Shown: piece by piece, positions 14,919-43,349 of the stretch
How positions within the stretch are numbered: position 1 is the stretch's first letter
How the letters are laid out: every line of letters starts with the position of its first letter
IMG/VR virus record: IMGVR_UViG_3300043418_000182
Source: an uncultured virus (IMG/VR IMGVR_UViG_3300043418_000182)
Taxonomy: Duplodnaviria; Heunggongvirae; Uroviricota; Caudoviricetes; Schitoviridae
Reading direction: 5' to 3' (one strand)
DNA: 64,000 bases
The notes under the pieces: model-generated
What the model was told of the DNA's origin: nothing
What the model saw: only the letters and a program-made list of their open reading frames with translations
Databases searched by the model: none
Position numbers and translations under genes: made by a program

Positions 14919-17900
14919 ATGGCTACTTCCGATCCTCGGGACTATTTCAATAACCGCATTGCACAAGAACTAGATCGAAATGCCTTGGTAGGTATTTCAG
15001 ATGGCTATGACCAAATGCAAGCGGCCAGCCGTCAAAAGATCCTTGACCTTTCCCAATTGAAAAAACAGCAGGAAGTTGCTGAAGCCAAGATGCGTGAATC
15101 TTGGGTGGGCAAGCTTGGTTTGAATCCTGATGGTGTGGTGGGCACTGCAGTCAACCTGGGTGCTTCGGCTTATTCAGGCGTTGCCCGTGGCATGGGCGAA
15201 TTGACTTCATTGGTTCCTGCCGTGGCGTCATGGGCAGATGAAAACTCAGTCAGTGAAGACGAGATTTCTGCTTACAACCGCAAGCAACAAGGCATTGCCA
15301 CGCCGGAAGACATGGCCTTGTTGACTCGCAAGAAAGCGTTCTATGCCGAGCGGGATACTCCTGAAGCCAAAGCGCGCGCACAGGAAATTGCTGACCGAAA
15401 TCCTGAAGGCTTGTCGGCGCTGGACTTGATTGAACGCAGTAAAAAGATGCGCACGGTCAGCCGTGACATCAATGAAGTGTTTGACAACAGCAGCGTGGTG
15501 CACCAAGGCAACCGCGATGAGTTAACGGACGATTTGGGCAAAAGCTTTCAAGCTGCCTGGGATCAGACTGGCTTGGCCAACACGTTTTCTAAAGACAAAG
15601 AAGTTGGTGGCATCAAAGATGTGATCTCTGGTGTGGCCAAGCTGCTTTACAACGCTGGTGAGGCAGGCATTACTCATCCCACTGCCACGGCTGAGTACAT
15701 CTCCGAAAACTTGCCCCAATTGGTGATGGGTTCTGCCGGCAAAGGCGGCAAACTTTTGATGTCGGCTTCCAACGCAAGCTATGCGGCCGACAACTACCAG
15801 CGCGGCATGCAGAACTACGCAGCCGAGAACAATGGTGAATTGCCTTCTGCTGACAAGCGCATGGAAATGGCCTTGTGGGCTGCCTCGACAGCAGTGGCTG
15901 AACAGGTAGGGGAAGTTGGTCAGTTGGCTGCCATTGGCAAAGTTCGCAAGTCCATTCCTGTGGGCGAAGAAGCTGCGCGTCTTGGTTTTAAACAGTCGTT
16001 GAAAAACACAGCCAAAGCAACTGCCACTGGTTTTGGTGAAGAAGCAGCCACGGAAGGTTTTCAAACCTACGCTGAAGGGGAAGCTTCTCTTAAACCTGCC
16101 TCTGCACAGGACGTGTATGTGGGCGGTGTCATTGGTGGCTTGTCTGGTGGCGGTATTTCAGGCGGTGGCCGAGCTGCCGCCGAAGCTTTGGGCGCTACTC
16201 CTGAGAAAGTGGCCAAAAAAGTTGACGATGCCAAGAAGTCTGAAGACTTGAACACGGCAATCTCTACTGGTGATGTCACCAAGTTCCTGGATCCCAAGGA
16301 TCCTGCCTACTCACCTGAGCGCGCTGTTCAAGCGTTGTACGGTCACAGCAAATTGCCTGAGACCAGTGAAGAAACCAAGCAAGCCAGCTTGAAAAAGGCC
16401 ACCGAGATCGTGGCTGACCTGGAAGAACAAAAAGCCAAGGAACAAACTTACTACGACGCGGTGTCTCCAGCCATGGTGGAGAACCTGAAAGCTTTGCTGG
16501 GCAAAGCTCAGGCTGCTGGCAACCAGGAAGTGGTCGCCGGTATTCAAGAAGAGTTGGCTTCCATTGAAAACGACACAACTACGGCTCCTCGTTTGGAAGC
16601 CAAGCTGGCTCGTATCGATCGACAGCTGACTGCAGCCCAAGAAGCCTTGGCCAACTTTCACGAAGAGTCTCAAGCGCGTGATCTGGATGTGACCGCTGAA
16701 GTGGCTCACATCAACGGTGCTGATTCAGTGGCTTCACAGGAATCCGCTGACCGGGTCATCAACCTGTCTATGGCGATCCCAGAGCGTTTGGACACTGCGG
16801 TGGCTACATCGCTTGCCGAGAACACAAATAACGCCTTGACGGCCCCTCAGCGCGCTTACCTGCGTGCATTCAGTGCAGCCCGTGCTGCTGAGAACTTGCT
16901 CAAAGACATGGGCAAGGTTTCCCAGGAGATTTACCACGGTGGTAAGGGCATGGTCGGTATCCAACAGTACCGAGCCAGTGTGGCTGCAGCTTTGTCTGCC
17001 GGCAACAAGTCCGCTGCTGATACGCAGATTGCCCAGCTGAGCAAATTTGTGGGTGACCACCAGGCCAAGGCCACGGTCTCCGCGCGCGCACTGAAGCAGT
17101 TTGAGACTTCTGGATTACCCGTTCAGGTGATCAGTGATGGCAAGCGTGGTTGGGCCATCAACATGGGTGAGCAATTGCCTGCAGCCGAGTTGCGCAAGCA
17201 GGGCGGTGTGTTGGTGGATGAGAAAAGTTCAAAGTTGGTCGACAGCTTCAAGACTGAAGCGGATGCACTGAGCAAAGCTGAGGCAGAGCTGCGCGCCGCT
17301 TACGACATCAAGTTCAACACAACCAGTGAGGTGAAGAATGTCAAGGACGTATCGAAGACACCTGCACGAAGTGAAGAGTCCACCGATCGCGCTCAGACCC
17401 AAGCCAAGACAGAAAGTAGTACCGCCAAGGATGGTGGAACTGCCGGAGAACGATCGACCAACGCCGATGTACAGAGCAGTGAAAACGCTGGTGTAGCCAA
17501 GTCTGCTGAGAAGGCTCCTGCCTCTTCTGTGACAACTGCTGAAAATCAAGAGCAACTGCAGTCTACTGAGGCCGCACAAGATACTGCAACCGCACCTGTT
17601 GAGGAATCAGGGAAACTCTCTACCCTTCAACAGACATCCCCGGAGGGGACTGCATTCAACCTGCGCAACTTGGTGGCTGACTACTTCACACAGTCTGCTG
17701 GCAAAGAAAGTGATGCCACAACACGTCCGTTGGTAGAGGTAAAGAACTTCCTCACTCAGACAGCCAAGAGTGCAGTGGACTTCTTGCAAGACAAAACTCT
17801 GAGTGGTGCACAACAACAAGTGCTGCAGCTGTTCAAAACCAAAGCTTCTGCATGGCAAGCCACCATTCAAAAGAACTTGTCATTGCGCAAGCGTGAGTTC

Positions 17901-20900
17901 TGGTACACCGACATGATGGACTTTCTTGTTCAAGAGAGCGAAGGCAACCTTGATCTGGAAGAGAACGTGAAGACTGCAATGAGCTATGCCGCATTCAGCT
18001 GGATTGCTGAAAATGCAGGCCGCTCGATGTACAACACCGATGCTGAAATCAGGGCGATCCTAGATCGTGATGAAGATCACATCGTGTCACGACAAGAACG
18101 CAATGCGTTGGGTCTTGTAGGCCTTCGCCAAAATGTGATTGCCAACTCGTTGGGTCAGCGCGCAGTGCAAGCGCTTGGTTTGAAAGAAAACAAGGATGCT
18201 CCCAAGAATCTAATGCCGCGTTTGGAAGGTGCCTTGGGTGCCCACATCATGAAGATGATGCTGGATCAGGGCATGCTCAAACGCACAGAGATCTCTGGCA
18301 AAGAGATGGCAGCCATGACGGGCAAAAAGGACACCAATTCGTCGGCGTCATTTCAGTTCATCTCATTGGTTCGTGATGAGCAAGGTAACCCCAATGCTCA
18401 AGCCAAAGAGATCATGGAGGCCAGCAAAGGTACCCAGGGAATGATGGACAAGTTGTTCTCGGTGGAAGCCTCGTTGAAAGCGCCTACGTTTGAGCCAGTA
18501 AAGTTTACGCAGACCAACACCCGCAACACCGATCAGAAGGTTCCTGAGAACCAGGCCAAAATCATTGAGCATGAAAACCAGGTGCCTAACTTTGTTCGCC
18601 AAGACATGTGGCAACTGATTACGCAGTTGTCGGACAGCGTGCGCGAAGCAATTGCAGGTGTGGAAGAAGTGTCTGAGCACACTCATGTGGTCAACAAAGC
18701 CAGCGTGCAAGCCAAAAACGATGGCTTGAAGCGCGAGCTGGAACGCTTTGTGGAATTTGTCAGCGGCATGGATGACATCGAAGCCGCGATGTACTTTGAG
18801 CACAGCGTGTGGAAGCAACAGCGCGTAGGTATTTCGACCAACGTGATCAACCCCCAAAGCAGCAAGATCCATCGCTTCATGTTGTACCGCAATGCGTGGA
18901 CAACCAAAGTTGACATGGCCAATGATGCCCAGATGGACAACTTCCGTCTGCGCGTGCTTGAAGGCTTGGGTGTCAAAACCGACAAGCAGTCCAACCAGAC
19001 TTCCTTGGCTGGCTACCAAGCCATGGTGAACCAACCTGCCATTGCTGATGCGGTGGAAGTTTTGCGCAAGAGTGTGTTTGAGGGTGGCATCACCGCTGAA
19101 GAGCAGCAAGTACTGGTAGCCGGCGTCAAAGCAGGCAAGCAGAAGTTCCATTCACTGGATGCGTTGATGGCACTGGCTCATGAAGCCCAAGCCATGAAGG
19201 AAGGCAAAGATTCCTTTACCGTTCAGATGATGGGTGAAGTGGACGGTGTGACCAACGGCCCCATGCTCAGCCACTTGATGCTAGGCGCTTCGGAAACCGT
19301 GGAAGGTTTGTTTGGTTTGTTGAATCGTGGTGGCTTTTTTGAAAAAACCAATGACCAAACCCAGTACAACCAGTGGCGCGAACAACCAGGCCATTTGGAC
19401 TTGTACGAGAACACGGCTTTGCACATGACCCAGGCAGTCCAAGCAATGCTGGACAAAGACAGCAAGCTGGGTGTGACGCTGGGTGCCATCTATGCGTTCA
19501 CTGGCACGTTGGCTGACAAAGACGGTTCAGTGGCCAAGGCTGGCCGCAACATCATCAAGACACCGCTGACTGCCATGGTCTTTGGTTCGTCAGTGACTTC
19601 GGCCGTCGACAGCATGGCCAACGGTTTTGTGGAATCAATCTACGCAGCCATTGAAGATGTGTCGGCCGGTAAGGGTGATGTCAAGCATGTGATCGACAAC
19701 ATCAACGTCTTGCTGATGATGGGCAAAGGCCCAACCATCAATCAGATGTCCATTGAACAGTTGATGAAAACTGAGCTTAGCAACGAACAAGTCAACGCTT
19801 TGAAAAAGTCTTTCAAGGACACCTTGGGCAAGGCAGTTGCTGAGACCATGAAGACAGACTTCAACACGTTCATCGAGCAACGCAAGGAGTTCAACGAAGC
19901 TGCTCAGCTGTCTTTTGAGATTTACAACGCAGCCTACCAAGGTCTGCGTGATGCCTACGTAGCAGAGCTCATCAAGTCTGGTGACTTGGCCACCGATTCC
20001 AAGGGCCGACCTATCCATGATCTGACCACCGGTCAAGAAATGGAATTGAAGAATCGTGTGCGCAAACTGGATCCTTTGATGCACACCTTGATGTCCAAAG
20101 AAAGTGGCTCTTTGTCTGCTGGTTTGCACGTCTCCAAGAGTGACCGAAAGCTCAGTGCCCGTACTACCTACGAAGGTGAAATCAAATTTGGCAGCAAGTT
20201 TGCTGACAACGGTGCTTCGTCGACTACCACCCGGGGTTACGAAATAGTGGAGACTGCTCCTGGTGTAGCGATGATGGTGTTGTCTGCCCACTCGGCTGAC
20301 AGCGCTGTTTCACACACTGCGTTGGACGGCAATGAGGTACTTAACGTTCACGATGCGCATGGCACTGGCTTGAAAGACTTTGAGCAAACTGCGCGCAACC
20401 TGAACAAGGCGACATGGAACACCATGTTGAATTACTCACCGGCCAATGAAATTGCACAGACGTTGTCCCGTGTCGTGGTTGGTCTGGCTGGTTTGATGGA
20501 GCAGGGCGATGTGCCGGCACAGGTGATTGCAAACCTGAAGACTGTGCTGGGTGAAACGTCATTGGCTGCGGCCCTGACCCAAGCCAAGGACCTTGCTTTC
20601 AAAGCGGACAACATGCGCTTGGAAGCCCTTGGTTTGATGGGATCTGTTGACCAGTACGCACTGGAAGGTGGTAACTACCAAGTCACCGAAGGGAACCGTG
20701 CCGAAGCCCAAGCCAAACGGGCTGCATTGTCCAAGGAGCTGAGCTCTGATGAAGCGGCGGCTTTGGTGCAGATTGCGTCGTCGCTGGGCCAGGCCTCCAC
20801 CGCTGACGCGGCTCCAGCCAGTCCCGCTCCTCGCACGGCTACGGTAGAAACTGCTTTTGGCAAAGTAGGAACTCCCAACATCCAGAGCGAAGGCGATCTG

Positions 20901-23900
20901 GTTTCGTTCTTTGAAGCCAACCCACAGGCATCTGCTGGCCAGGTGATTGAGTTGCTGTCGGCACCAGGTCGACTGACGGCGATCAACCGCAAAATCTTGC
21001 AGCTGGTCAGCCGCACGGTAAGCCCTGATTTGTCGATCCGTTTTGTGACACCTGAGACCGCTGAGTCCATGGTGTTGGACAAACCAACTACCAACGCGCG
21101 CGGCTGGTATGTGATCAAGAACGGTGCCGAAGAAATCTACGTGCTCAGCCCTGCGTTTGTGCATTCTGGTTTGACTTCCGAAACCTTGCTCCATGAACTG
21201 GTGCATGCAGCGATCGCCAAAGCTATCGACAGTCCTACGGCTGCGGCCAAAGAACTGATTGCTGAGCTGGAGGCTTTGCGCGTTCAAGCCCAGGAATATG
21301 CTCAAGCTGCTGGCTTGAACCAGTTTGCTGATGCACTGGCCGATGTCCAGGAGTTTGCTGCCTGGGGCATGACCAACTTCGAACTGCAGCGAGATGTGTT
21401 GTCTAAGATCACTTTCAAGTCCACCACAGGTGGCAACAAGTTGATCACCGGCATGCAAAAGTTCATCAGCACTTTGACCCAGTTGTTGTTCAAAAAGCCT
21501 GACCAGAACATTGACAACGGTTTGTCTGTGTTGGTCAGCAACGTTTCTGGCTTGTTCTACCAAGCAGCCCAGACCGAGAAGGAATCCAAAGGCAACCTGA
21601 ACCTGGCCATGTCGGCAGATTCCGCAATCGACGCTTACACCACGTTGGACATTCACAACGCATTGGATAACGGGGCTTTGGAGCCATCGTTCAAGGAACA
21701 CCTGGCCAACTTACTCGGAGGCATCGTTGAGCGTCTCCACGGCCCGTTTGGTGCCTTGGCGGCCCAGATGCGCAAGACCGAAGCCGGCAACCCTCTGGCT
21801 GTGTGGCTCAAAGCCATGGAAACAGGCAAGGCACCGTTTGCTTCGGCGATCGTGGCCAGCGGTTTGGCCGGTAGTGCGCAAGAAGACTTTGCCATGCAAC
21901 AGATCGAAGCCACGGTCAAAGCAGCTTTGGAAGGCAACGAAGCCATGGCCAAGATGGCCTACAAACAGCTTGCTGAGTTGTACAAAGAAGCCCGAGCCAA
22001 GCTCAAGCCATCTGACTTTGCCTCGCAAGCAGACTATGACTTTGTGTTCAAGCTGGAAGCAGACAGCGGTGACCGTTCAGATTACCTGGCTCGCTTTGCT
22101 GCGCTAGGGTTGGGCAACCAGAAAGTCAACAGCTTGTTGAAGTTCAACACCCAGGTTAATACCAGCCGATTTGGTGAGGGTCAAACCCTAACCGAGCGTT
22201 TGGAAAACATCTTTGAAAAGATCGTGGCTTTCTTTGCTGAGAAGATCACCCATGCCTACGGTGGCCAACAGGCTGACCAGAAGTTGCTGGCTTTGGTGGA
22301 TCAATTGGTGGACATCGAGGCTCGCAAACGCCATAGCCTGAAGCTGCGCGCCGGTCAGACTAACTACCTGGCCCCAGTGGAAGAGGGTGTCAAAAAGGCG
22401 ACCGACGCTGCGCGAGCCAAGATTAGTGAACTGGCTGGCTCAGACTTGGTGCGCAAGAACAAGAATGCGTTTGTTCGTGCAGCAGGTGGCCTGGCCCGTA
22501 CCTATGCCAATGACCAGGTGGAATGGTTCCTGGAAGGTATCCAGCGCTTGCGTGACAAGGAGTTCAAAGGACGCCAAGGTATGGTGGCCAGTTTGGTGAC
22601 CGAGCTCAAAGGCCCATTGGACAAGTTCAATGCGTTGCTTCGTCAGACCAAGCATCTGGAACAACTGCGCAAAGGCATCATTACCCAGCAGGCTGCCTTG
22701 GCTTTGAAGATGTTCAAGGACGAAGGCAAGAACTTGAGCAAAGAAGCCAAGTCGGCTGTCTCTGCAGTGTTCTTGCGTACAGGCATGCACAACTTGTTGG
22801 AGCACTTCACCTCAGCCGAGATGGAGAACCTGTTGGGTAACTCCACTGCACTGGACATGTCCATTGATGCGTTTGAAAGCCAGTTGACTACTGGCATGAA
22901 GAACCTGTACATCGAGCAAGCCAACGCACTGGGCTTTTACAAGGCCACAGGCAAAGCTCGCTCACCGGTTTTGATGCTCAATGCTCACCTGATTGCTCGC
23001 ATGGCAGGCACTCAGTTGAAAGCTCAGGTTTCTGAGGAAGAAGCCACTCAAGCTGAACCAATCCTGTCGGTGCTGGTCACGCTTTATGCGTTGAAGTACT
23101 CCAGTCAAGAAGACCAGGCCGCAGCCAAAGAAGTGTTCCGTGATGAAAACAATCGCACGGATGGCAACGGTGTAGATTTTGTTTTGGCTTTGCACAAGAA
23201 GTTGGAAGCCGAATCATTAGAGCGCTTGTTCAAGGGCAACCCTGCTTTGATGATCCATGGTTACACCCCTGAAATTTTGAACCCGTACACCGCCATCAAG
23301 ATTGCTGATGCAGTAGATGGCCAAGATCTGGTGAACCAGGGCTACTCCAAAGGTGCCCAGGTGCCTAATGACTTGACTGACCCAGACAACACCACCAAGC
23401 ACATCTACGTGTTGCGTGACGGTGGCTTGGCACCGTGGTTGTCAGGGGTGTTCTCGCTGTCCAGCATGAAAGCCAAGGGCAGCAAAAAGCACAACGGCTA
23501 CCTGAACGTGAACAACCAACAAGGGTTGGAGAATGCTCAGTTGCAAGCCACCATTTCCAATGCAAAGCTGACCGCCTTGCAAGGTCGTCGAGATCCACGC
23601 CGTGATCTGTCAAAGCAAGATGGCAACCACATGGTTCCTGTCTTCAATGAAATGGGCGACATCGTGAACTGGCGCTACATGATGGCCGAGACCACCAAGA
23701 ACACTTTGCTGGAACGTGACAATCGTTTTGAAAATGTGTTGGGTGCTTTGTCTGGTTCGATCTTTGACAAAGCCACGTCACGCGAGCAGAACAAGGAAGC
23801 AATCCTTGCCTTGCGCGAACAGTATGAGCTGGAATATGCCACCCGGGCGGACTCTTACATCCTGGTGGGCGAACGCAGTACAGATCCCGAAATGCGTGCC

Positions 23901-25094
23901 ATTTGGAACCTGTTGCCAGAGAACACTCGACGTGATGCGCGCGCGATCTGGGGCCGCAATGGCATGATGGTGCGCAGCGATTCACTGGACTTGATGTTTG
24001 GTTACCGCAAAGTCAGCTTGGCCGCCATGTTCCAGAAAGACCCTGATGCACGAAACAAGCTGGAAAGCCTGTTTGTGGGGGTCATGGAAACGGTGCTGGC
24101 CAACTACGCTGGCTACAAGCATGGTCTGTCTCCGGCCGACGCTCAGGCCTATGCAAAACGTGCAGCCGTCATGATCACCCGAGGCGAACGCGCATGGCAG
24201 GAGCTGGTGCACGAAGCCAAAGACATCATTGTGGTCAAGACTGGTTTTGTGATGCTGGGCAACATCTGGTCAAACTTGTCTTTGCTGGCCATGTCAGGGG
24301 TGTCGCTCAAGGACATCCTTCACCACCACCTGGTGGCCATGAAAGGTGCCACGGCTTACCAGACAGACAGCAAGCGTTTGGCTGACCTGCAGACCATGCT
24401 GGAACTGGGCCACACCTTGGGCAACGAAGAGGAAATCAAACGCGAGATCGTCATGCTCAAAGATGCGATCGCCCGCAACCCAGTCAAGGAATTGATTGAT
24501 GCTGGTTTGATGCCTACCATTGTGGAAGACGTGGCAGCAGATGATGATCTGTACTCGTACAAAAGCCAGTTTGCGCGCAAGACAGAAAAGTACACCGACA
24601 AACTTAACCCAAAGGTTAAGGCAGCGGCTCGCTTTGTTTACATGGCGCATGACACTCAGATGTATCAGACCTTGAGCAAGATCACGCAGTTGTCTGACTT
24701 TGTGGCGCGCTACACGCTGTACCAGCACTTGATCAACAAGGCCAAAGACCCGTTGAGCAAAGCCGAAGCAATCCAACAAGCCAGCGATGCGTTTGTGAAC
24801 TACGACATCCCAATGCACCGTGGTTTGCAATTTAGCGATGACATGGGCATCACACCGTTCACCAAGTACTTCTTGCGCATTCAGCGTGTGCTGTTGAAGT
24901 TGACTCGTGAGAATCCTGCGCGTGTGTTCATGAGTGTTGCATTGAACAACTTTTTGGACTTAGGCCCCATCGTTCTAGACAGTTCGTTTGTGCACCACAT
25001 CGGCAACAACCCGATTCACAGTGGTGCCTTCCAATTGCCTGGGGCATTGGAGGAACTGGCTACGGTGCACGCAGCGATGGCCATGGTGAAATAA
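14919..25094 (+). CDS. virion-encapsidated RNA polymerase (N4 gp50-like)
   Basis: 3391 aa, no Cys seen. T7-family motifs: A EVDGVTNGP, B RNIIKTPLTAMVFGS, C NVHDA; NPQSSKIHR segment; HELVH in the C-terminal part. Confidence 0.95.
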   Translation: MATSDPRDYFNNRIAQELDRNALVGISDGYDQMQAASRQKILDLSQLKKQQEVAEAKMRESWVGKLGLNPDGVVGTAVNLGASAYSGVARGMGELTSLVPAVASWADENSVSEDEISAYNRKQQGIATPEDMALLTRKKAFYAERDTPEAKARAQEIADRNPEGLSALDLIERSKKMRTVSRDINEVFDNSSVVHQGNRDELTDDLGKSFQAAWDQTGLANTFSKDKEVGGIKDVISGVAKLLYNAGEAGITHPTATAEYISENLPQLVMGSAGKGGKLLMSASNASYAADNYQRGMQNYAAENNGELPSADKRMEMALWAASTAVAEQVGEVGQLAAIGKVRKSIPVGEEAARLGFKQSLKNTAKATATGFGEEAATEGFQTYAEGEASLKPASAQDVYVGGVIGGLSGGGISGGGRAAAEALGATPEKVAKKVDDAKKSEDLNTAISTGDVTKFLDPKDPAYSPERAVQALYGHSKLPETSEETKQASLKKATEIVADLEEQKAKEQTYYDAVSPAMVENLKALLGKAQAAGNQEVVAGIQEELASIENDTTTAPRLEAKLARIDRQLTAAQEALANFHEESQARDLDVTAEVAHINGADSVASQESADRVINLSMAIPERLDTAVATSLAENTNNALTAPQRAYLRAFSAARAAENLLKDMGKVSQEIYHGGKGMVGIQQYRASVAAALSAGNKSAADTQIAQLSKFVGDHQAKATVSARALKQFETSGLPVQVISDGKRGWAINMGEQLPAAELRKQGGVLVDEKSSKLVDSFKTEADALSKAEAELRAAYDIKFNTTSEVKNVKDVSKTPARSEESTDRAQTQAKTESSTAKDGGTAGERSTNADVQSSENAGVAKSAEKAPASSVTTAENQEQLQSTEAAQDTATAPVEESGKLSTLQQTSPEGTAFNLRNLVADYFTQSAGKESDATTRPLVEVKNFLTQTAKSAVDFLQDKTLSGAQQQVLQLFKTKASAWQATIQKNLSLRKREFWYTDMMDFLVQESEGNLDLEENVKTAMSYAAFSWIAENAGRSMYNTDAEIRAILDRDEDHIVSRQERNALGLVGLRQNVIANSLGQRAVQALGLKENKDAPKNLMPRLEGALGAHIMKMMLDQGMLKRTEISGKEMAAMTGKKDTNSSASFQFISLVRDEQGNPNAQAKEIMEASKGTQGMMDKLFSVEASLKAPTFEPVKFTQTNTRNTDQKVPENQAKIIEHENQVPNFVRQDMWQLITQLSDSVREAIAGVEEVSEHTHVVNKASVQAKNDGLKRELERFVEFVSGMDDIEAAMYFEHSVWKQQRVGISTNVINPQSSKIHRFMLYRNAWTTKVDMANDAQMDNFRLRVLEGLGVKTDKQSNQTSLAGYQAMVNQPAIADAVEVLRKSVFEGGITAEEQQVLVAGVKAGKQKFHSLDALMALAHEAQAMKEGKDSFTVQMMGEVDGVTNGPMLSHLMLGASETVEGLFGLLNRGGFFEKTNDQTQYNQWREQPGHLDLYENTALHMTQAVQAMLDKDSKLGVTLGAIYAFTGTLADKDGSVAKAGRNIIKTPLTAMVFGSSVTSAVDSMANGFVESIYAAIEDVSAGKGDVKHVIDNINVLLMMGKGPTINQMSIEQLMKTELSNEQVNALKKSFKDTLGKAVAETMKTDFNTFIEQRKEFNEAAQLSFEIYNAAYQGLRDAYVAELIKSGDLATDSKGRPIHDLTTGQEMELKNRVRKLDPLMHTLMSKESGSLSAGLHVSKSDRKLSARTTYEGEIKFGSKFADNGASSTTTRGYEIVETAPGVAMMVLSAHSADSAVSHTALDGNEVLNVHDAHGTGLKDFEQTARNLNKATWNTMLNYSPANEIAQTLSRVVVGLAGLMEQGDVPAQVIANLKTVLGETSLAAALTQAKDLAFKADNMRLEALGLMGSVDQYALEGGNYQVTEGNRAEAQAKRAALSKELSSDEAAALVQIASSLGQASTADAAPASPAPRTATVETAFGKVGTPNIQSEGDLVSFFEANPQASAGQVIELLSAPGRLTAINRKILQLVSRTVSPDLSIRFVTPETAESMVLDKPTTNARGWYVIKNGAEEIYVLSPAFVHSGLTSETLLHELVHAAIAKAIDSPTAAAKELIAELEALRVQAQEYAQAAGLNQFADALADVQEFAAWGMTNFELQRDVLSKITFKSTTGGNKLITGMQKFISTLTQLLFKKPDQNIDNGLSVLVSNVSGLFYQAAQTEKESKGNLNLAMSADSAIDAYTTLDIHNALDNGALEPSFKEHLANLLGGIVERLHGPFGALAAQMRKTEAGNPLAVWLKAMETGKAPFASAIVASGLAGSAQEDFAMQQIEATVKAALEGNEAMAKMAYKQLAELYKEARAKLKPSDFASQADYDFVFKLEADSGDRSDYLARFAALGLGNQKVNSLLKFNTQVNTSRFGEGQTLTERLENIFEKIVAFFAEKITHAYGGQQADQKLLALVDQLVDIEARKRHSLKLRAGQTNYLAPVEEGVKKATDAARAKISELAGSDLVRKNKNAFVRAAGGLARTYANDQVEWFLEGIQRLRDKEFKGRQGMVASLVTELKGPLDKFNALLRQTKHLEQLRKGIITQQAALALKMFKDEGKNLSKEAKSAVSAVFLRTGMHNLLEHFTSAEMENLLGNSTALDMSIDAFESQLTTGMKNLYIEQANALGFYKATGKARSPVLMLNAHLIARMAGTQLKAQVSEEEATQAEPILSVLVTLYALKYSSQEDQAAAKEVFRDENNRTDGNGVDFVLALHKKLEAESLERLFKGNPALMIHGYTPEILNPYTAIKIADAVDGQDLVNQGYSKGAQVPNDLTDPDNTTKHIYVLRDGGLAPWLSGVFSLSSMKAKGSKKHNGYLNVNNQQGLENAQLQATISNAKLTALQGRRDPRRDLSKQDGNHMVPVFNEMGDIVNWRYMMAETTKNTLLERDNRFENVLGALSGSIFDKATSREQNKEAILALREQYELEYATRADSYILVGERSTDPEMRAIWNLLPENTRRDARAIWGRNGMMVRSDSLDLMFGYRKVSLAAMFQKDPDARNKLESLFVGVMETVLANYAGYKHGLSPADAQAYAKRAAVMITRGERAWQELVHEAKDIIVVKTGFVMLGNIWSNLSLLAMSGVSLKDILHHHLVAMKGATAYQTDSKRLADLQTMLELGHTLGNEEEIKREIVMLKDAIARNPVKELIDAGLMPTIVEDVAADDDLYSYKSQFARKTEKYTDKLNPKVKAAARFVYMAHDTQMYQTLSKITQLSDFVARYTLYQHLINKAKDPLSKAEAIQQASDAFVNYDIPMHRGLQFSDDMGITPFTKYFLRIQRVLLKLTRENPARVFMSVALNNFLDLGPIVLDSSFVHHIGNNPIHSGAFQLPGALEELATVHAAMAMVK

Positions 25095-25164
25095 CTCTCA
25101 AGGGTGGGAACGGGTGGCAGGGTTGCCACTCTATCGCCGGATAATCCGTCCCCACTCTTGAAAG
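25095..25164 (-). ncRNA. putative structured RNA, three-way junction
   Basis: On the - strand a 19-bp outer stem (2 G-U, 1 mismatch) encloses hairpins TTATC-CGGC-GATAG and GTGGCA-ACCC-TGCCAC. Confidence 0.55.
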
Positions 25165-25165
25165 T

Positions 25166-25340
25166 CCTCGTCTCTCCGAGGTGTCACGCCGTTCTGCTGG
25201 ACTTCTGACTCCAGGCGTTCTCATGTCGCACATTACAAACAATCCAGCTTGTGCGGCACCCCGTATCTTGGGCCGACAAGTCACAGGCGAACCTGCGAGA
25301 GTAATTCTGTGATGGTGGTTCCGGTCTTTCCCGGATGTCA
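25166..25340 (-). repeat. two copies of a TGACA-N4-GGARAGAC-N4' hairpin motif (25166-25186 and 25320-25340)
   Basis: TGACA-CCTC-GGAGAGAC-GAGG versus TGACA-TCCG-GGAAAGAC-CGGA: conserved flank and loop, covarying stems. Confidence 0.7.
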
Positions 25341-25384
25341 TGTCATTGCTCCCAGAGTTAGCCACATTGCTGTGACCCCAATCA

Positions 25385-25447
25385 TTGGGAATCGAACCCA
25401 ACTCCCGTCCTACCAAGCCTCGACAAGCGATCAGGAATCGAACCTGA
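25385..25447 (-). ncRNA. two tRNA-like T-arm hairpins outside a canonical tRNA
   Basis: TCAGG-TTCGATT-CCTGA (25431-25447) and TTGGG-TTCGATT-CCCAA (25385-25401); no D/anticodon arms or CCA. Confidence 0.6.
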
Positions 25448-25455
25448 ACTTTAGG

Positions 25456-25518
25456 TGATGGCTACTAGCTCTACGGCCTGTTATGGGCTTTCAACCTACG
25501 CTACTGCGTTCACCATCA
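25456..25518 (-). ncRNA. putative structured RNA with GAA/AGUA (loop E-like) internal motif
   Basis: TGATGGT-GAA...AGTA-GCCATCA closing stem. Confidence 0.45.
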
Positions 25519-25521
25519 GAA

Positions 25522-25611
25522 CTGGGGACTGCTCACATAAAGCAGTGTAGGGAAGGAGTCTCATGGCTGTTCGCAATGAAACAACGGCGCTGACCCGTTG
25601 CCAGTCCCCAG
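25522..25611 (-). ncRNA. C4/c4-2-like antisense RNA candidate
   Basis: CTGGGGA/TCCCCAG outer stem with hairpins CAACGG-GTCAGCG-CCGTTG and CTGCT-TTATGTG-AGCAG; resemblance to phage C4 RNAs is from memory. Confidence 0.5.
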
Positions 25612-25686
25612 ATCTAATGGTGGTGCCTTACGGGCACCAGTCGGTCTTGATTTTATTACCCGCCACACAAGACTTGGCGGGTGACT

Positions 25687-25992
25687 TCACTTGACGAGAA
25701 GTTCGTCCAGTGTTTTACCCGACGCTACGTGATCTTCAACCCATTTGGGTTTTCGTCCCAGTCCAGACCAGGTCTGTTGACCTAGCTTGTACCGTGCAGC
25801 TTTCTTTGGTTTACCGCTGGGGATGTACTTACTGACCTCATCAAAAATGAGATCCCGAGAACGTATTCCGTAGGTTCGGATCATCAGATTGATGTTCTCG
25901 ATTGCCTCGAATTTCTCGGTAGCCAGCAGGTCGTCGCGTTCCTTTTGCAAGGCCTCGATTTTCTGTTGGAGTTCAGTAAGCTTGTCAGCCAT
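25687..25992 (-). CDS. hns: H-NS family nucleoid-associated protein (Bv3F/betaproteobacterial type)
   Basis: N-terminal coiled coil plus C-terminal RY...TWSGLGRKPKW DNA-binding motif; start reassigned to MADKL at 25992. Confidence 0.9.
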   Translation of the reverse strand: MADKLTELQQKIEALQKERDDLLATEKFEAIENINLMIRTYGIRSRDLIFDEVSKYIPSGKPKKAARYKLGQQTWSGLGRKPKWVEDHVASGKTLDELLVK

Positions 25993-26035
25993 CAGTGGTT
26001 TTCCTTTAGATTTAGGGGGGTCATGAAAGAGAGCG

Positions 26036-26260
26036 TCAACTCGTTTTTCGTTCTCTTTCTTGTTCGCCTGTTTCAAGGCGATCTGGTTCGGCTTCACAGT
26101 ATTCCTTTATGCAGTAAGCCACAAAACCTACCACAATCGCACCATAGAAGAGAAGCCCTGCTATGGCAACGATTGCTGCAATCAGAGTACTTAGAGCGCC
26201 CAGTACAGATACCACCAGAACTGCAGCCACTACGTAGCCAAGTCCCTTTAGAACGCCCAT
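26036..26260 (-). CDS. small membrane protein
   Basis: Two long hydrophobic segments; in the - strand operon. Confidence 0.6.
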   Translation of the reverse strand: MGVLKGLGYVVAAVLVVSVLGALSTLIAAIVAIAGLLFYGAIVVGFVAYCIKEYCEAEPDRLETGEQERERKTS

Positions 26261-27222: not shown

Positions 27223-27502
27223 CGGTATTTTGTGGTTCAACAGGCTCTGCCATGAAAGGCAAAGTGCCCACTTCGATCAAAGCCAAAGCCAAGCCCATCT
27301 GGTAACCCTTGAGGACATCACCGGAAAGCATCGTAGGGGGTTCGTCACTAAACGAGACCTCAGTGCCTTCTGGGATAGACATCATGTGTTCCAGAGTCTT
27401 GATCTTGTTCTCATGCCATGCAAAGAGCAAGGCAATGAAATGATCGATATTTTCTACGTACAGAGTCTCTGCCGCAGCTTCAGGTTTTGGTTGGTCAATC
27501 AC
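27200..27502 (-). CDS. hypothetical protein
   Basis: 100-aa ORF coupled to its neighbours; ELGxLPF-like C-terminus. Confidence 0.65.
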   Translation of the reverse strand: MIDQPKPEAAAETLYVENIDHFIALLFAWHENKIKTLEHMMSIPEGTEVSFSDEPPTMLSGDVLKGYQMGLALALIEVGTLPFMAEPVEPQNTDEPATAH

Positions 27503-27984
27503 AGGATGCTCCAGTCTTCAGCCAGGACATCGGTCTGACTTGCTGTCCAGACTTGGATGTCGTTTTGCACAGTCTTCATGGCAATGTACGCACGGTAGGG
27601 AACCAACGAGTTTTCACCAAAGAAGCTCATGGCCGCTTTGGTTTTCACTGGGTAGTAATCTGCCGGTACGTGATACAGGAACATGCCCTTGCCGTTCCAA
27701 CCAGCTCGAGCAATCTTGGCACCACGCTTGCATGCTTCAACAGCCAGACCAAAGGTCAAGCCAGTTGTTGCACGGTAGGCGTTGTTGAAGACTTTGAGTG
27801 GGGACCAGCTGACGTAGCCTGGGTAGTCCGTGGTGTTGGCCTTGCCACCATCCAAGTACTCCACCAGCATGCCTGCATCGTCACCGTTTTCGTCAGCTGG
27901 GAGTTCCCAGCCTCGGAAAGCGTTGTACTCTGCACGGGTCATTGGTTTTGCGTTGATGACCTTGACGCCGATGAACTGTTTCAT
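27499..27984 (-). CDS. DUF2829 / Tad2-like protein with extra N-terminal domain
   Basis: C-terminal TFGLAVEACKRGAKIARAGWNGKGMFL...WTASQTDVLAEDW matches DUF2829; N-terminal domain FIGVK...YVSWSP..VF..AY. Start at 27984 (ATGA overlap). Confidence 0.85.
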   Translation of the reverse strand: MKQFIGVKVINAKPMTRAEYNAFRGWELPADENGDDAGMLVEYLDGGKANTTDYPGYVSWSPLKVFNNAYRATTGLTFGLAVEACKRGAKIARAGWNGKGMFLYHVPADYYPVKTKAAMSFFGENSLVPYRAYIAMKTVQNDIQVWTASQTDVLAEDWSIL

Positions 27985-28268
27985 AGGCCCGCCTCGAATC
28001 GACGCTGCAACAGCAGGTAGCCTTCCAGCTCCCAAATCTTGTTGAACGCACGCTCATAGGCGTACTTCTCACCCAAGGCTTGGTTGTATGCAGCAGGATC
28101 AACGCAAGCGCTGGTGCCGGTCACAGTACAACCGTTTTCTAAAGTAAGTTGGCAAACCGTAGTGGTCGTTCCTTCAAGACGATGAAAAATCGTCATCTTG
28201 ATTTTGCGTTCCATGTCGGTCACCGTCACCCGGCTAGGGATCTGATTTTCTTGTGGTTGTTCAGTCAT
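27981..28268 (-). CDS. Phage_gp49_66 family protein (Acb4-like nucleotide sponge candidate)
   Basis: TVCQLTLENGCTVTGTSACVDPAAYNQALGEKYA..AFNKIWELEGYLL signature. Confidence 0.8.
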   Translation of the reverse strand: MTEQPQENQIPSRVTVTDMERKIKMTIFHRLEGTTTTVCQLTLENGCTVTGTSACVDPAAYNQALGEKYAYERAFNKIWELEGYLLLQRRFEAGL

Positions 28269-36602: not shown

Positions 36603-37700
36603 ATGACTTGCTCAACAGATACGTGTGGTGTGGGCGGCTGGTCTGGCCCGCTACCAGGGGATCCAGACAACAACTTAATCCTGTCCGCAACACCTGCGTT
36701 CGGGGGTATTGATGTGTCTTGGAACTACCCAGCCACCAACCCTGAGGCAGTGGCTTATGTGAAGTTGTACCGTGGTTTGTTGCCAAGCTTTGGGGCGGCA
36801 ATCTTAATCGCCAATGTGGGTGGCAACACTTACTACGATAAAAGCCAGACAAACCAAGCCATTGATTACTACTACTGGATTGAAATGGTTTCGGTCAATG
36901 GCACTGTGGGTGCTTTGATTGGCCCAGCAAATGCCACAGCTCGTCCAACCATTGATGCCATGATTGAGCAGTTGACTGGACAGATTGATGCAGGTGTTTT
37001 GGCTCAGTCTTTGAAAGCCAAGATTGATCAGATCACTTTAAATGCTCAAGCGATCGTCACGGAATCCCAGACCAGGGCTACGGCCGACGATGCGTACAGC
37101 ACATTGATGACCCAAGTGCAGGCCGGAGTGGCCAGTTTGTACTCAACAGTGCAAACAGAAATCACCACTCGCCAGGCAGGCGACTCTACGTTGGCCTCAG
37201 CCATCAACACCGTTCAAAGCACGTTTGGAACTAATCTGGCTTCGGCACAGACAACATTGCAAACCAACATCAACATTGTTGATGGCAAAGTGCATGACAT
37301 TGGTGCGCGCTACACAGCAACAGTCACTGTCAATGGTTTGGTGGGTGGCTTTGGGGTTTACAACGATGGGTCTTCAGTGGAAGCTGGCTTTGACGTTGAC
37401 ACTTTCTGGGTAGGCAAAACCAGTCTCAACAAGAAAAAGCCCTTCATCATTTCTGGTGGTGAAACGTTCATCAACCAGGCTGTGATTGCTTCAGCCAGTA
37501 TTGACATTGCCAAAATCAACAAAGCCACAATCTTGAATTTGTCTGCTTTGAACGCCGACATGGGCAGCATCACTGCTGGCAATATTCGTTTTGAAAAGCC
37601 GGGTGATCCTACTAGTGCAATCATCATGGACAAAGCAACCCAGACTTTGACAGTCTGGAATGCTGGGGTTATGCGAGTCAAATTGGGTAACTTGGCATGA
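36603..37700 (+). CDS. tail tip / fiber protein (FN3-like N-terminus, coiled coil, DUF1983-like C-terminus)
   Basis: YYYWIEMVSVNG; GGFG...F.VDTF...KPFII.GG.TFIN.A.I; ends RVKLGNL like lambda J-type C-termini. Confidence 0.75.
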   Translation: MTCSTDTCGVGGWSGPLPGDPDNNLILSATPAFGGIDVSWNYPATNPEAVAYVKLYRGLLPSFGAAILIANVGGNTYYDKSQTNQAIDYYYWIEMVSVNGTVGALIGPANATARPTIDAMIEQLTGQIDAGVLAQSLKAKIDQITLNAQAIVTESQTRATADDAYSTLMTQVQAGVASLYSTVQTEITTRQAGDSTLASAINTVQSTFGTNLASAQTTLQTNINIVDGKVHDIGARYTATVTVNGLVGGFGVYNDGSSVEAGFDVDTFWVGKTSLNKKKPFIISGGETFINQAVIASASIDIAKINKATILNLSALNADMGSITAGNIRFEKPGDPTSAIIMDKATQTLTVWNAGVMRVKLGNLA

Positions 37701-37978
37701 CCTTTGGCTTAGAAATCTTTAAAGCCAATGGTGGCTTGGGTTACTCCACAGCTGATGTGACATGGAACCAGGTCGATTTCTTTTATGTGGCTGCTAACGG
37801 AAGCGAAACCCGCACTTTGCCAGCTTTGTCTGGCCGTCAGGTTTTGGCTGTGCAGTCTTTCATTAACCCTCCGCCTAACGATCGCAAAGCACTTGCGCAC
37901 AACGTGGTGGTCAGCGGTACTACGGTGACAGCCAGCGGTGGCACTGAGGCTGCTTACATTTTGGTTTTAATGAGATGA
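37697..37978 (+). CDS. small tail-tip-associated protein
   Basis: MTFGLEIF start typical of genes following J-like tips; beta-rich. Confidence 0.6.
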   Translation: MTFGLEIFKANGGLGYSTADVTWNQVDFFYVAANGSETRTLPALSGRQVLAVQSFINPPPNDRKALAHNVVVSGTTVTASGGTEAAYILVLMR

Positions 37979-38892: not shown

Positions 38893-39094
38893 CATCATCA
38901 AACCATTCAAAATACTAAACACCAAAGAAGAACTTGGTGGGGCTATAGGCGTGTATTTTGAAGCTGAAAAAGTTGAAATACCTTCTCCTTTAAAGCGCCG
39001 TCGATTGGGCGTTCAGTCCTATATTTCAGTACCTGCTGGCCAAGACGTGGAACAGGCTGTGTTTGAGCATCTTCAAAATTCGGGGTGGTTATGA
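38885..39094 (+). CDS. hypothetical protein
   Basis: Coupled ORF, start MTDIIKP. Confidence 0.6.
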   Translation: MTDIIKPFKILNTKEELGGAIGVYFEAEKVEIPSPLKRRRLGVQSYISVPAGQDVEQAVFEHLQNSGWL

Positions 39095-39702: not shown

Positions 39703-39806
39703 ATGTGGTCTAATATCCATCAATCGAACGGATGACTGAATAGCAGGAACTTCCGACAATCAATTTAGTCCCAAACACTTGGTTTGGGTAGTCGGAGAAC
39801 CTGCGA

Positions 39807-40142
39807 ATGACTTCTAGAATCAAACTCGTCCGAGGTGATACCGGTCCTCAGATTCGCCTTGCTTTGACCGATACGATCACTGGCAATCCGACGGATCTGA
39901 CCGGTGCCACGGTGACCTTGCACTTTCGAGCAGCTGACTCGGATGTGGTGCTGTTCTCCCGCCCTGCCTTTATCAACCCCGATACTGACACCACGGGTGT
40001 TTGCTTTATCGAATGGGCTGAAGGCGACCTAGACCAAGAAGACGGCGATTACGACGGTGAAGTCGAAATTGTCAGTGCCACTGGTGTGCGTGAAACCATC
40101 TACGGTTTGTTGAAGTTTCGAATCCGCAAGGACTTCGCATGA
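39807..40142 (+). CDS. BppU-N-like structural protein
   Basis: IKLVRGDT.P...DLTGATV...W..GDL...G.Y.GEVEI pattern. Confidence 0.7.
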   Translation: MTSRIKLVRGDTGPQIRLALTDTITGNPTDLTGATVTLHFRAADSDVVLFSRPAFINPDTDTTGVCFIEWAEGDLDQEDGDYDGEVEIVSATGVRETIYGLLKFRIRKDFA

Positions 40143-41047: not shown

Positions 41048-41057
41048 AGGAAAAACT

Positions 41058-41516: not shown

Positions 41517-41528
41517 TAGAGGCTGCAA

Positions 41529-41741: not shown

Positions 41742-41744
41742 CAC

Positions 41745-42071: not shown

Positions 42072-42074
42072 ACC

Positions 42075-43340: not shown

Positions 43341-43349
43341 GGAAAAAAC

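What the first reader, a model, noticed from the sequence alone, without database searches (positions are those of the whole stretch)
25095..25685. ~600-nt array of back-to-back structured RNA elements between vRNAP and H-NS
Seen: the whole gap lacks a credible gene in an otherwise tightly packed genome and folds into consecutive elements on the - strand. In order after the hns stop: two hairpins, a C4-like multi-stem, a GAA/AGUA loop-E-like element, two T-loop arms, a GCAA tetraloop hairpin (GGTCACA-GCAA-TGTGGCT), a UUCG hairpin (TCGCAGG-TTCG-CCTGTGA), two copies of a TGACA/GGARAGAC motif, and a 19-bp-stem three-way junction abutting the vRNAP stop. G-U pairs and tetraloops favour the - strand. 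Inference: this is either a polycistronic small-RNA cassette or one large ncRNA at the end of the middle operon. Possible roles are tRNA-mimic decoys against host nucleases, RNA antitoxin mimics, or lysogeny control. This is the best candidate here for an undescribed system.
Basis: partly seen in the sequence, partly recalled or inferred. Interest (0 to 1): 0.85.

Follow-up and report, generated by a model that had tools for sequence, protein, structure and literature searches.

The report
Modular structured-RNA array in N4-like phage
The 592-base gap between the phage's giant virion RNA polymerase gene and its H-NS gene is a chain of separately folding RNA modules, most of them built from portable RNA motifs that also occur in many unrelated phages and match no family in Rfam release 15.

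Summary
Window 25095-25686 has no credible gene and folds better than shuffles, more so on the minus strand (z -5.2 against -3.0). ARAGORN and Rfam 15 match nothing.

Relatives share the locus, but its length runs from 0 to 1250 nt and its modules are shuffled. I resolve five parts:
- a pseudoknot plus a GUAA hairpin;
- a 115-nt three-way-junction domain, the "P motif";
- a tRNA-mimic unit with two T-arms closed by a covarying long-range helix;
- a clade-specific "unit A";
- a terminal three-way hairpin.

Both the tRNA-mimic unit and unit A end in one 23-nt hairpin, UGACA-5 bp-GAR(N)AGA-5 bp-AC ("H"). H, the P motif and the double-T-arm unit all occur in many unrelated phage and prophage sequences across bacterial phyla. 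They often sit beside tRNA genes. H has strong stem covariation and a G-U over A-C bias that fixes the strand.

Function is not shown, and no expression data could be obtained. My best reading is a minus-strand array of autonomous small RNAs, at least one a Y-RNA-like tRNA mimic, that share H as a 3' handle or boundary signal.

The parts
25644..25682 (-). Candidate H-type pseudoknot directly after the hns stop. Stem 1 is ACCCGCC/GGCGGGU. Loop bases GUCUUG pair with CAAGAC downstream. The strand between them holds a conserved UAAUAAAAU.
   Evidence: Stem 1 is in the MFE fold. Read by eye in the 9-sequence alignment A3, both stems change together across relatives: GUCUUG/CAAGAC, GUCUGC/GCAGAC, GACUGC/GCAGUC, GGCUUGC/GCAAGCC. 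RNAalifold reported only part of stem 1, and the pseudoknot pairing was not scored with a tool.
25621..25639 (-). GUAA-loop hairpin (UGGUGCC-CGUAA-GGCACCA). It occupies the place that the H hairpin has in relatives L027 and L034.
   Evidence: Five of its 7 pairs have compensatory changes among 9 relatives. It is followed by AC and the P-domain stem, as H is in L027/L034.
25509..25623 (-). P domain, a three-way junction. It has a closing stem, the invariant hairpin CAACGG-GUCAGCG-CCGUUG, a variable hairpin, and the hairpin CAC-UGCUUUAU-GUG.
   Evidence: z -6.2. 10 of 36 pairs are compensatory in 7 N4-like sequences. The core occurs in 88 viral loci, 59 of them distinct. In a 30-sequence alignment all 6 closing-stem pairs covary. 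No Rfam match.
25450..25508 (-). Linker domain that starts with the small hairpin ACGC-AGUA-GCGU.
   Evidence: Conserved at 91-95% in L024, L034/L045 and L027. Its structure was not tested further.
25318..25449 (-). Double-T-arm tRNA-mimic unit (TT-H). It contains T-arm 1 (25431-25447), UCGCUUGUCGAG, a D-loop-like GGUA, T-arm 2 (25385-25401) and the GCAA hairpin (25360-25377). A long-range helix pairs UGUC (25422-25425) with GACA (25341-25344). The unit ends in boundary hairpin H1 (25318-25340).
   Evidence: Conserved in distant N4-like relatives L086, L088 and L091 and in more than 100 viral loci. 20 of 80 such loci have an H hit 70-125 nt downstream on the same strand. In the 18-sequence alignment, 13 of 18 pairs are compensatory, including the long-range helix. 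ARAGORN and Rfam call no tRNA or tmRNA here.
25281..25298 (-). UUCG-tetraloop hairpin (UCGCAGG-UUCG-CCUGUGA) leading into unit A.
   Evidence: Present. Relatives keep a hairpin at this position with other stable loops: UUCG with an extra pair in L027 and GCAA in L028.
25164..25280 (-). Unit A (25187-25280) plus boundary hairpin H2 (25164-25186). It has a 5' hairpin, the closing helix ACGCC/GGCGU and the inner hairpin UGGA/UCCA, followed by GACA, H and AC.
   Evidence: In 11 sequences, 97.3% of cells are paired against 86.4% in shuffles (0 of 500 as high). 7 of 20 pairs are compensatory, including C-G to A-U in the closing helix. A 20-nt core is found in only 16 viral contigs, 14 of them already in the N4-like set.
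25095..25163 (-). Terminal long hairpin with two inner hairpins, abutting the vRNAP stop codon. It is the likely end of both convergent transcripts.
   Evidence: z -7.0 on the minus strand and -5.1 on the plus strand. Relatives have a long stem here (L041, L020) or a GC hairpin followed by UUUUCUU on the middle-gene strand (L028, L036, L038). The simple terminator scan finds none in the window itself.

Best explanation
The gap is a non-coding array of separately folding RNA modules read from the minus strand, the strand of the middle genes. Most likely it is made as the 3' continuation of the hns transcript and ends at the terminal hairpin beside the vRNAP stop codon.

The modules are portable. 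The P domain, the double-T-arm unit and the 23-nt hairpin H (UGACA, a 5-bp stem closed by G-C, loop GAR(N)AGA, then AC) each occur in many unrelated phages and prophages.

Each H-bearing unit is a multi-helix domain closed by a helix whose 3' strand runs straight into GACA-H-AC. H is therefore a shared 3' end-piece on otherwise different RNAs.

My inference is that H is a common handle, either a binding or processing site for a widely conserved host factor or a protective 3' cap. It would mark where the long transcript is divided into stable small RNAs. I also infer that the double-T-arm unit acts as a tRNA look-alike that engages host proteins which recognise the tRNA elbow.

Shown: the non-coding nature, the strand, the modular make-up, the helices and the wide distribution. 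Inferred: transcription, cutting into units, the partner of H, and any decoy role.
For: Non-coding and structured:
- Fold z-scores and ORF checks.

Strand:
- 41 of 41 pattern hits in 63 homologous gaps lie on the middle-gene strand.
- All 53 covariance-model hits over 603 kb, both strands searched, do too.
- Among 239 distinct H contexts, 147 have all Watson-Crick stems, 25 have only G-U exceptions and 1 has an A-C exception.
- G-U pairs occur in the GCAA and UUCG hairpins and in unit A.

Covariation:
- P domain; unit A; GUAA hairpin; T-arms; TT-H long-range helix.
- H: 46 different stems.
- A pattern that does not demand pairing gave 108 of 121 fully paired matches in viral contigs and 69 of 123 in bacterial genomes. 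My estimate of the chance rate is about 2%.

Modularity:
- Gap length runs from 0 to 1250 nt.
- Units occur in different numbers and orders.

Link to tRNA:
- A true tRNA-Arg(UCU) lies in the same gap in L093.
- H lies 3-14 nt upstream of same-strand tRNAs in 9 of 93 distinct contexts.
- The P motif lies inside a tRNA array in L351.
- In the cultured N4-like phage Pokken, H lies about 345 nt before a tRNA cluster.

tRNA-mimic reading:
- The order T-arm, acceptor-like segment, D-loop-like GG segment matches that described for YrlA (PMC4201824, passages read).

Precedent:
- The N4-like phage LUZ7 makes several small non-coding transcripts from an intergenic region near the distal end of its middle genes (PMC9163698, passages read).
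Against:
- No sigma-70-like promoter and no simple terminator is found inside the window's gap.
- The T-arm and unit A segments fold no better than shuffles (z -0.6 and -0.85).
- Many relatives have almost no gap (<130 nt), so the array is dispensable for the phage type.
- The partner of H is unknown.
- H is not enriched before canonical terminators: 27 of 180 downstream on the same strand, against 18-23 of 180 in three control positions.
- The neighbours of H are heterogeneous.
- The strand bias would equally fit a single-stranded DNA hairpin.
- The YrlA covariance model does not match.
- 0 of 39 phage records carrying the double-T-arm motif encode a Ro60/TROVE protein.
- The rows of the H alignment A8 and of the TT-H alignment A10 were chosen with a filter that needed a paired H. 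Their H statistics are therefore partly by construction.
Confidence: 0.6

Rival explanations
1. A cis-acting 3' untranslated region, not a set of free small RNAs. The structures would control the stability of the middle-operon mRNA or how far transcription reads past the convergent junction into antisense of the vRNAP and late genes. H would act like a nut/boxB-type or other polymerase-modifying hairpin.
For: - In E. coli phage mEp390, two H copies lie in the roughly 450-nt leader between the repressor/PL region and the next gene, ahead of a terminator-like hairpin.
- E. coli prophages have a 1-kb stretch with no annotated feature at that place.
- H has a 5-bp stem and a purine-rich loop, as boxB does (boxB form recalled, not tested).
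- 10 of 180 H copies are followed by a terminator within 17 nt.
- LIT1/LUZ7 make antisense RNA over late genes at early and middle times (PMC9163698, passage).
Against: - H is usually single-copy and sits in very different places: before tRNAs, after capsid genes, between structural genes.
- There is no general link with terminators.
- HK022, the model for RNA-only antitermination, has no H.
- Middle transcription in N4-like phages uses a phage polymerase, so one polymerase-binding RNA is unlikely to serve both these phages and the 34 of 39 H-bearing records that lack PF00940, the T7-type polymerase domain.
Confidence: 0.2
2. A DNA-level element. The hairpins would form in single-stranded DNA and serve as hairpin promoters for the phage polymerases, as priming sites, or as an origin or terminus of replication at the convergent junction.
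For: - N4-like phages use DNA hairpin promoters (PMC9163698 passages).
- G-T tolerance and strand bias fit single-stranded DNA as well as RNA.
- The sense strand would be the lagging-strand template if replication runs with transcription (inference).
Against: - The LUZ7 promoter hairpins described in that paper have 3-4-nt loops. H has 6-8-nt loops.
- H occurs nowhere else in the 64-kb window, for example not upstream of middle or early genes.
- 34 of 39 H-bearing records have no PF00940 (T7-type) polymerase.
- The array carries RNA-typical features: GNRA and UUCG tetraloops, T-loops, long-range helices and multi-helix junctions.
Confidence: 0.08
3. Mostly decaying sequence with no function of its own: remnants of tRNA genes, recombination scars and a bidirectional terminator in a tolerant intergenic hot spot.
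For: - Gap length varies from 0 to 1250 nt, and many relatives lack the array.
- A true tRNA sits in the same place in L093.
- T-arms are present without a full tRNA.
- Some relatives have opposite-strand genes in the gap.
Against: - The invariant loop and flanks of H, with 46 covarying stems across phyla.
- The P core and the TT-H unit are conserved in phages whose vRNAP C-termini are only about 45-55% identical, and well beyond N4-like phages.
- Compensatory changes in long-range helices.
Confidence: 0.08
4. The gap encodes a small protein, the 118-aa minus-strand ORF at 25060-25416.
For: The ORF exists.
Against: - No Pfam family.
- It has a TTG start and runs antisense into the vRNAP gene.
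- It is not conserved in the closest relative.
- Relatives differ by 1-nt indels and by whole-module insertions within it.
Confidence: 0.02

Closest known systems
YrlA, the bacterial Y-RNA-like tRNA mimics (Rfam RF02553; Chen et al. 2014, PMC4201824)
   Same: The double-T-arm unit has a canonical T-arm, then an acceptor-like segment, then a D-loop-like GG segment. This is the permuted order described for YrlA. YrlA RNAs are also reported in phages (passages read).
   Different: - RF02553 does not match the window or 14 related loci.
- 0 of 39 phage records with the motif encode Ro60/TROVE, and no TROVE hit was found among 59 window ORFs.
- A second T-arm is present.
- Covariation favours a long-range helix over a local acceptor-like hairpin.
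- The unit ends in H.
Putative sRNA1-3 cluster of the N4-like Pseudomonas phage LUZ7 (Putzeys et al. 2022, PMC9163698)
   Same: LUZ7 is an N4-like phage. The cluster is a non-coding intergenic region of about 400 nt near the distal end of the middle-gene block, about 1 kb from the vRNAP junction. It gives several small transcripts, one seemingly made by processing.
   Different: - There is no sequence likeness, and the H model finds nothing significant there (best E 0.67).
- It lies between orf69 and orf70, not against the vRNAP gene.
- It is expressed late.
- The strand was not stated in the passages I read.
GOLLD and ROOL, large ornate phage RNAs (properties recalled; Rfam families)
   Same: Both are phage-borne, multi-domain RNAs several hundred nt long, associated with tRNA genes, and have variable parts.
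   Different: No Rfam match at E<=10. Here the domains recur independently in other genomes rather than as one fixed large RNA.
Lambda boxB/nut hairpins and HK022 put RNA (PMC9378689 passages; boxB form recalled)
   Same: H is a 5-bp hairpin with a purine-rich, GNRA-like loop. In mEp390 it lies in the early-left leader, where nut or put sites lie.
   Different: - The loop is 6-8 nt, with fixed UGACA and AC flanks.
- Most copies lie in unrelated contexts and in non-lambdoid phages.
- HK022 has none.
tRNA genes and phage tRNA clusters
   Same: - T-arm sequence GGUUCGAUUCC with a 5-bp stem.
- A D-loop-like GGUA.
- Neighbourhood of true tRNAs in relatives.
   Different: There is no anticodon arm and no free acceptor end. 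ARAGORN and RF00005 both give nothing.

Membership tests
tRNA | Cloverleaf with acceptor stem, anticodon arm and T-arm, detectable by ARAGORN or RF00005 | tested here: not met
   0 genes in the window. No RF00005 match at E<=10 in the gap. Only the T-arms are tRNA-like.
tmRNA | tRNA-like domain plus tag reading frame, detectable by ARAGORN or RF00023 | tested here: not met
YrlA / bacterial Y RNA | Match to covariance model RF02553 | tested here: not met
   No hit in the gap. In 14 double-T-arm loci the only hit is 24 bits (cut-off 69), and it lies over a true tRNA.
YrlA / bacterial Y RNA | tRNA-like domain with the order T stem-loop, acceptor-like stem-loop, D stem-loop | tested here: inconclusive
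   The order of sequence elements fits (PMC4201824). However, covariation supports pairing of the middle segment with the 4 nt 5' of UGACA rather than a local stem-loop.
YrlA / bacterial Y RNA | Encoded next to a Ro60 (TROVE) gene | tested here: not met
   0 of 39 phage records had a TROVE match, and the control was positive in 2 of 14 genomes. No TROVE hit among 59 window ORFs.
C4 antisense RNA (RF01695) | Match to the Rfam model | tested here: not met
GOLLD / ROOL | Match to the Rfam models | tested here: not met
HK022 put antiterminator RNA | Homology with putL/putR of HK022 | tested here: not met
   The H model finds 0 matches at E<=1 in the whole HK022 genome, against 2 in mEp390.
N4-type hairpin promoter | Short GC-rich hairpin with a 3-4-nt loop upstream of early or middle genes, used by a phage single-subunit polymerase | tested here: not met
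   - H loops are 6-8 nt.
- No copy lies outside the gap in the window.
- 34 of 39 H-bearing records lack PF00940.
- Promoter features are taken from PMC9163698.
Intrinsic terminator (terminal hairpin) | GC-rich hairpin followed at once by a U-run | tested here: inconclusive
   The scan finds none in the window gap. The window hairpin is followed by UUAUUUC. Relatives L028, L036 and L038 have a GC hairpin plus UUUUCUU at the same place.

The most novel reading that the evidence does not exclude
H-terminated RNAs form a large class of phage non-coding RNAs that I could not find catalogued. In this reading, unrelated structured 'cargo' domains each carry the same 23-nt 3' handle, and they can be strung into arrays such as this one. 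The cargo domains include a Y-RNA-like tRNA mimic without Ro60, unit A, the 'unit B' of relatives and others. The handle would be read by one universal host factor, or would itself be catalytic, for example a self-processing signal. The P motif would be a second, independent widespread phage RNA of unknown ligand. Together they would mean that phages across bacterial phyla trade a common kit of small structured RNAs, often parked among their tRNA genes.
Probability: 0.3. Interest if true: 0.85.

Novelty: new variant of a known kind. Interest (0 to 1): 0.75.

Why it matters
Phage non-coding RNAs are poorly charted. This one intergenic gap turns out to be assembled from at least three conserved RNA building blocks that recur in many unrelated phages and prophages. 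The hosts include Proteobacteria, Cyanobacteria, Planctomycetes, Bacteroidota, Chloroflexi and Clostridia. None of the three matches Rfam 15.

Their habit of sitting among phage tRNA genes, and the tRNA-like build of one of them, points to the contest over host tRNA and RNA-processing machinery. That link is now testable, because two cultured phages carry the boundary hairpin: E. coli phage mEp390 and Stenotrophomonas phage Pokken.

Caveat: absence from Rfam and from my text searches does not prove the motifs are unpublished. Many candidate motifs from comparative screens are not in Rfam.

Tried and rejected
- DNA similarity to 50,697 phage records with the gap: no match.
- The window's own assembly is not held. 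Its nearest record, G001, is an identical fragment.
- Earlier findings of this scan: nothing, by genome, sequence, words or relatives.
- Idea that H is a promoter for an SP6/T7-like polymerase, based on likeness to GTGACA-N5-GAAGAG (recalled). Dropped because only 5 of 39 H-bearing records have PF00940 and because of the G-U bias.
- Idea that H always follows a helix ending in GU. A crude search for a stem of at least 5 bp was no better than a shuffled control. Specific alignments do support such a helix.
- Idea that H precedes terminators: no enrichment.
- Idea that H is put: HK022 has none.
- CsrA, Hfq or Ro60 as the partner. I set these aside on host range, because H occurs in phyla that, from recalled knowledge, lack CsrA or Hfq. 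Ro60 is also set aside. None of these was tested directly.
- Text searches for H sequence strings found nothing relevant.
- Keyword searches gave the LUZ7, put, YrlA and tRNA-mimic papers but no description of these motifs.
- The LUZ7 intergenic sRNA region has no H and only a partial RsmZ-terminator hit elsewhere in the locus.
- The metagenome scan and the protein-level tools were not used: homologue searches, structure prediction, complex prediction.
Full report
**1. The locus.** The window is part of an N4-like phage genome.
- A 3391-aa ORF (14919-25094, +) is the virion RNA polymerase. Its C-terminal 499 aa hit annotated vRNAPs of LUZ7, LIT1 and others at 46-47% identity.
- It converges on an H-NS-like gene (25687-26097, -; Pfam Histone_HNS).
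- That gene closes a minus-strand block with a RuvC-like protein, a Tad2-like protein, an N4 gp49-like protein, a primase and others.
- The 592 nt between the two stop codons are the finding.

**2.
- ARAGORN finds no tRNA or tmRNA in the 64 kb.
- Rfam 15 gives nothing credible at E<=10 over the gap or its surroundings.
- The gap folds better than dinucleotide shuffles on both strands, more so on the minus strand (z -5.22 against -3.03).
- Split into modules, the excess lies in the P domain (-6.2), the terminal hairpin (-7.0) and the first two hairpins (-3.0). The T-arm and unit A segments are unremarkable by energy alone.
- The 118-aa minus-strand ORF in the gap has no Pfam family and is not conserved.

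**3. Relatives.**
- Protein-anchored scans of IMG/VR gave 6, 12 and 80 loci.
- Of the 80 loci plus the window, 68 hold the convergent vRNAP end.
- The distance from the last middle gene to the vRNAP stop runs from about 0 to 1250 nt. Many distant relatives have under 130 nt (eight gap starts corrected by hand).
- The window's gap is a mosaic. Positions 5-178 and 424-590 match several relatives at 81-95%. Positions 22-374 match only L024, at 90.7%.
- Units occur in different numbers and orders.
- One relative has a true tRNA-Arg(UCU) in the gap (L093).

**4. The boundary hairpin H.** Two copies in the window (25318-25340 and 25164-25186, minus strand) have the form UGACA, 5 bp, GARAGA, 5 bp, AC.
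- They are the only two copies in the 64 kb, and 0 of 200 shuffles gave any.
- In 63 homologous gaps the pattern with a fully paired stem occurs 41 times, always on the middle-gene strand. There are 38 distinct copies.
- A covariance model built from 30 copies finds 53 hits at E<=1 in 603 kb, both strands searched. All lie on that strand, and all but three lie in the gap region.
- Loop variants have one or two extra bases: GAAUAGA, GAACAGA, GAGUAGA, GAAGAGA, GAGAGAGA.

**5. H is not private to N4-like phages.**
- A pattern fixing only the flanks, the loop and the closing G-C pair was scanned over IMG/VR. It reached the 120-locus limit, and 108 of 121 matches had all four free stem positions paired.
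- The same scan over one genome per bacterial species also reached its limit, with 69 of 123 fully paired. My estimate of the chance rate is about 2%.
- The genome titles name Cyanobacteria, Planctomycetes, Alpha-, Beta- and Gammaproteobacteria, Bacteroidota, Verrucomicrobia, Chloroflexi, Clostridia, Spirochaetota and others.
- Over 239 distinct contexts, 147 stems are all Watson-Crick, 25 have only G-U exceptions, 1 has an A-C exception, 8 have another single mismatch and 58 have two or more. The paired ones use 46 different stems. The hairpin therefore works on the strand as written, as RNA or as single-stranded DNA.
- 36 of 39 records searched whole carry it. 30 have one copy and 6 have two, and a reversed-pattern control gave 0.
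- Only the 5 N4-like records have PF00940, the T7-type polymerase domain.
- About 15 of 80 loci have a second copy within 1.2 kb. By my reading of the table, it is always on the same strand.
- Contexts vary:
  - 3-14 nt before a same-strand tRNA, in 9 of 93 contexts;
  - 19-32 nt before start codons;
  - after capsid genes;
  - after a gp2.5-like or Gam-like gene;
  - before an HNH gene.
- Canonical terminators are not enriched after it.
- Named carriers:
  - E. coli phage mEp390, with two copies in the leader between the repressor/PL region and the next gene; the first copy lies inside an annotated 81-aa ORF;
  - related E. coli prophages (32 of 5426 genomes, with no annotated feature under the match); the one inspected has a 1-kb unannotated stretch after the repressor;
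  - the N4-like Stenotrophomonas phage Pokken.
- HK022 has none.
- No Rfam family covers H in 20 loci.

**6. The P domain (25509-25623).**
- Seven N4-like sequences give 10 of 36 pairs with compensatory changes.
- Its invariant hairpin, searched as an 18-letter pattern, occurs in 88 viral loci, 59 of them distinct. Many lie on contigs that are not in the N4-like set.
- Contexts there include:
  - behind sigma-70-like promoters and ahead of a ribosome-binding site;
  - inside a tRNA array (L351);
  - with the closing stem followed by a U-run.
- In a 30-sequence alignment, all six predicted closing-stem pairs have compensatory changes. The small hairpin CNC-UGCUUNAU-GNG covaries at its middle pair in 4 sequences.
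- No Rfam match.
- In several relatives H sits 42-43 nt upstream of the core. In the window the GUAA hairpin has that place.

**7. The double-T-arm unit (25318-25449).**
- The two T-arms are not stray remnants. The segment T-arm, UCGCUnnnCGAG, GG(U)A, second T-arm is conserved in L024 and in the distant N4-like relatives L086, L088 and L091.
- A pattern for its first half reached the 120-locus limit in IMG/VR and gave 111 distinct sequences. 55 of them have a second T-arm-like hairpin within 90 nt.
- A few are true tRNAs: 5 of the 40 loci checked overlap an ARAGORN call.
- 20 of 80 loci have an H hit 70-125 nt downstream on the same strand.
- In an alignment of 18 such units, 13 of 18 predicted pairs have compensatory changes. 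Four bases within the UCGCU-NNNC-CGAG segment pair with the four bases just 5' of UGACA: UGUC/GACA in the window, and GGCC/GGCC, UGCC/GGCA, GGUC/GACC, AAUC/GAUU, AACC/GGUU and GACC/GGUC elsewhere.
- The unit is thus one RNA of about 130 nt, closed by a helix that runs into GACA-H.
- The order of T-arm, acceptor-like and D-like parts is that reported for YrlA (PMC4201824, passages). However, the YrlA model does not match, and 0 of 39 carrier records encode TROVE.

**8. Unit A (25187-25280, plus H2).**
- Eleven sequences support four helices. 97.3% of cells are paired against 86.4% in shuffles, and 7 of 20 pairs are compensatory.
- This includes a C-G to A-U change in the helix that abuts GACA-H.
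- Its core is found in only 16 viral contigs, 14 of them already in the N4-like set.

**9. Reading.**
- What is shown: a non-coding, minus-strand, modular array. Its units are multi-helix domains closed by a helix and followed by the common hairpin H. Three of its building blocks are widespread among phages.
- What is inferred: that it is transcribed with the middle genes, that H marks processing or protection points, and that the double-T-arm unit acts as a tRNA look-alike.
- The rivals cannot be excluded without RNA data. They are a cis-acting 3' UTR or antitermination role, a DNA-level hairpin function, and decay.
- The nearest experimental precedent is the cluster of small non-coding transcripts in LUZ7 (PMC9163698, passages), which is unrelated in sequence.

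**10. Limits.**
- No expression evidence could be obtained.
- The rows of alignments A8 and A10 were chosen by filters that demand a paired H.
- The pseudoknot was read by eye.
- Absence from Rfam 15 and from my literature searches does not prove that the motifs are unpublished.
- Supplementary files of the cited papers were not opened.

Noticed in passing
window 36603-51936 (+) and 52131-53219 (-): A plus-strand block interrupts the minus-strand replication genes. It contains a tail-tip-fibre-like protein, a glycine-rich protein and a Glyco_hydro_19 endolysin-like protein. A Phage_integrase family gene lies next to it. An integrase is unexpected in an N4-like genome.
   Followed up: no
window 27499-28035 (-): A 178-aa protein with a Thoeris anti-defence Tad2-like domain (E 1.1e-22) lies three genes upstream of hns.
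   Followed up: no
L342 2229-2471 (phage mEp390 gp36): The annotated 81-aa 'hypothetical protein' covers the first H hairpin and a unit-B-like RNA in the PL-side leader. PGAP annotates no feature under the matching stretches of the related E. coli prophages, so the ORF may be a mis-call.
   Followed up: partly
L093 5019-5092 (= L017 gap): A true tRNA-Arg(UCU) sits in the homologous gap of a distant relative, on the middle-gene strand.
   Followed up: partly
L070 gap, last about 45 nt: The gap ends with a T-arm followed by GCGUCCACCA, like the 3' end of a tRNA or tmRNA. ARAGORN calls no gene there.
   Followed up: no
L086, L088, L091 gaps: These distant relatives share further conserved non-coding blocks that the window lacks, for example GGACGGAAAUGUAGAGCC...GUAGUCAAGGC and UGUGAAGCC.GGGA.CAGCC.
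   Followed up: no
L020, L023, L026, L032, L034, L036, L038; also L101, L118, L219, L238, L268, L277: A further H-terminated RNA, 'unit B' (CAGCGG...CCAGYRUGAG-hairpin-GGCAAGCAACAG...GUGUGACA-H), is absent from the window. It is found in relatives and in bacterial genomes such as Rhodobacter capsulatus.
   Followed up: partly
L052, L053, L059 gaps: In some relatives the same intergenic site holds what looks like an opposite-strand gene, with a ribosome-binding site and ATG on the vRNAP strand, instead of RNA modules.
   Followed up: no
records G024, G027, G032: Each record has two H copies exactly 41.0-41.1 kb apart in a 73-80 kb record. These records may be head-to-tail duplicates of a genome of about 41 kb.
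   Followed up: no
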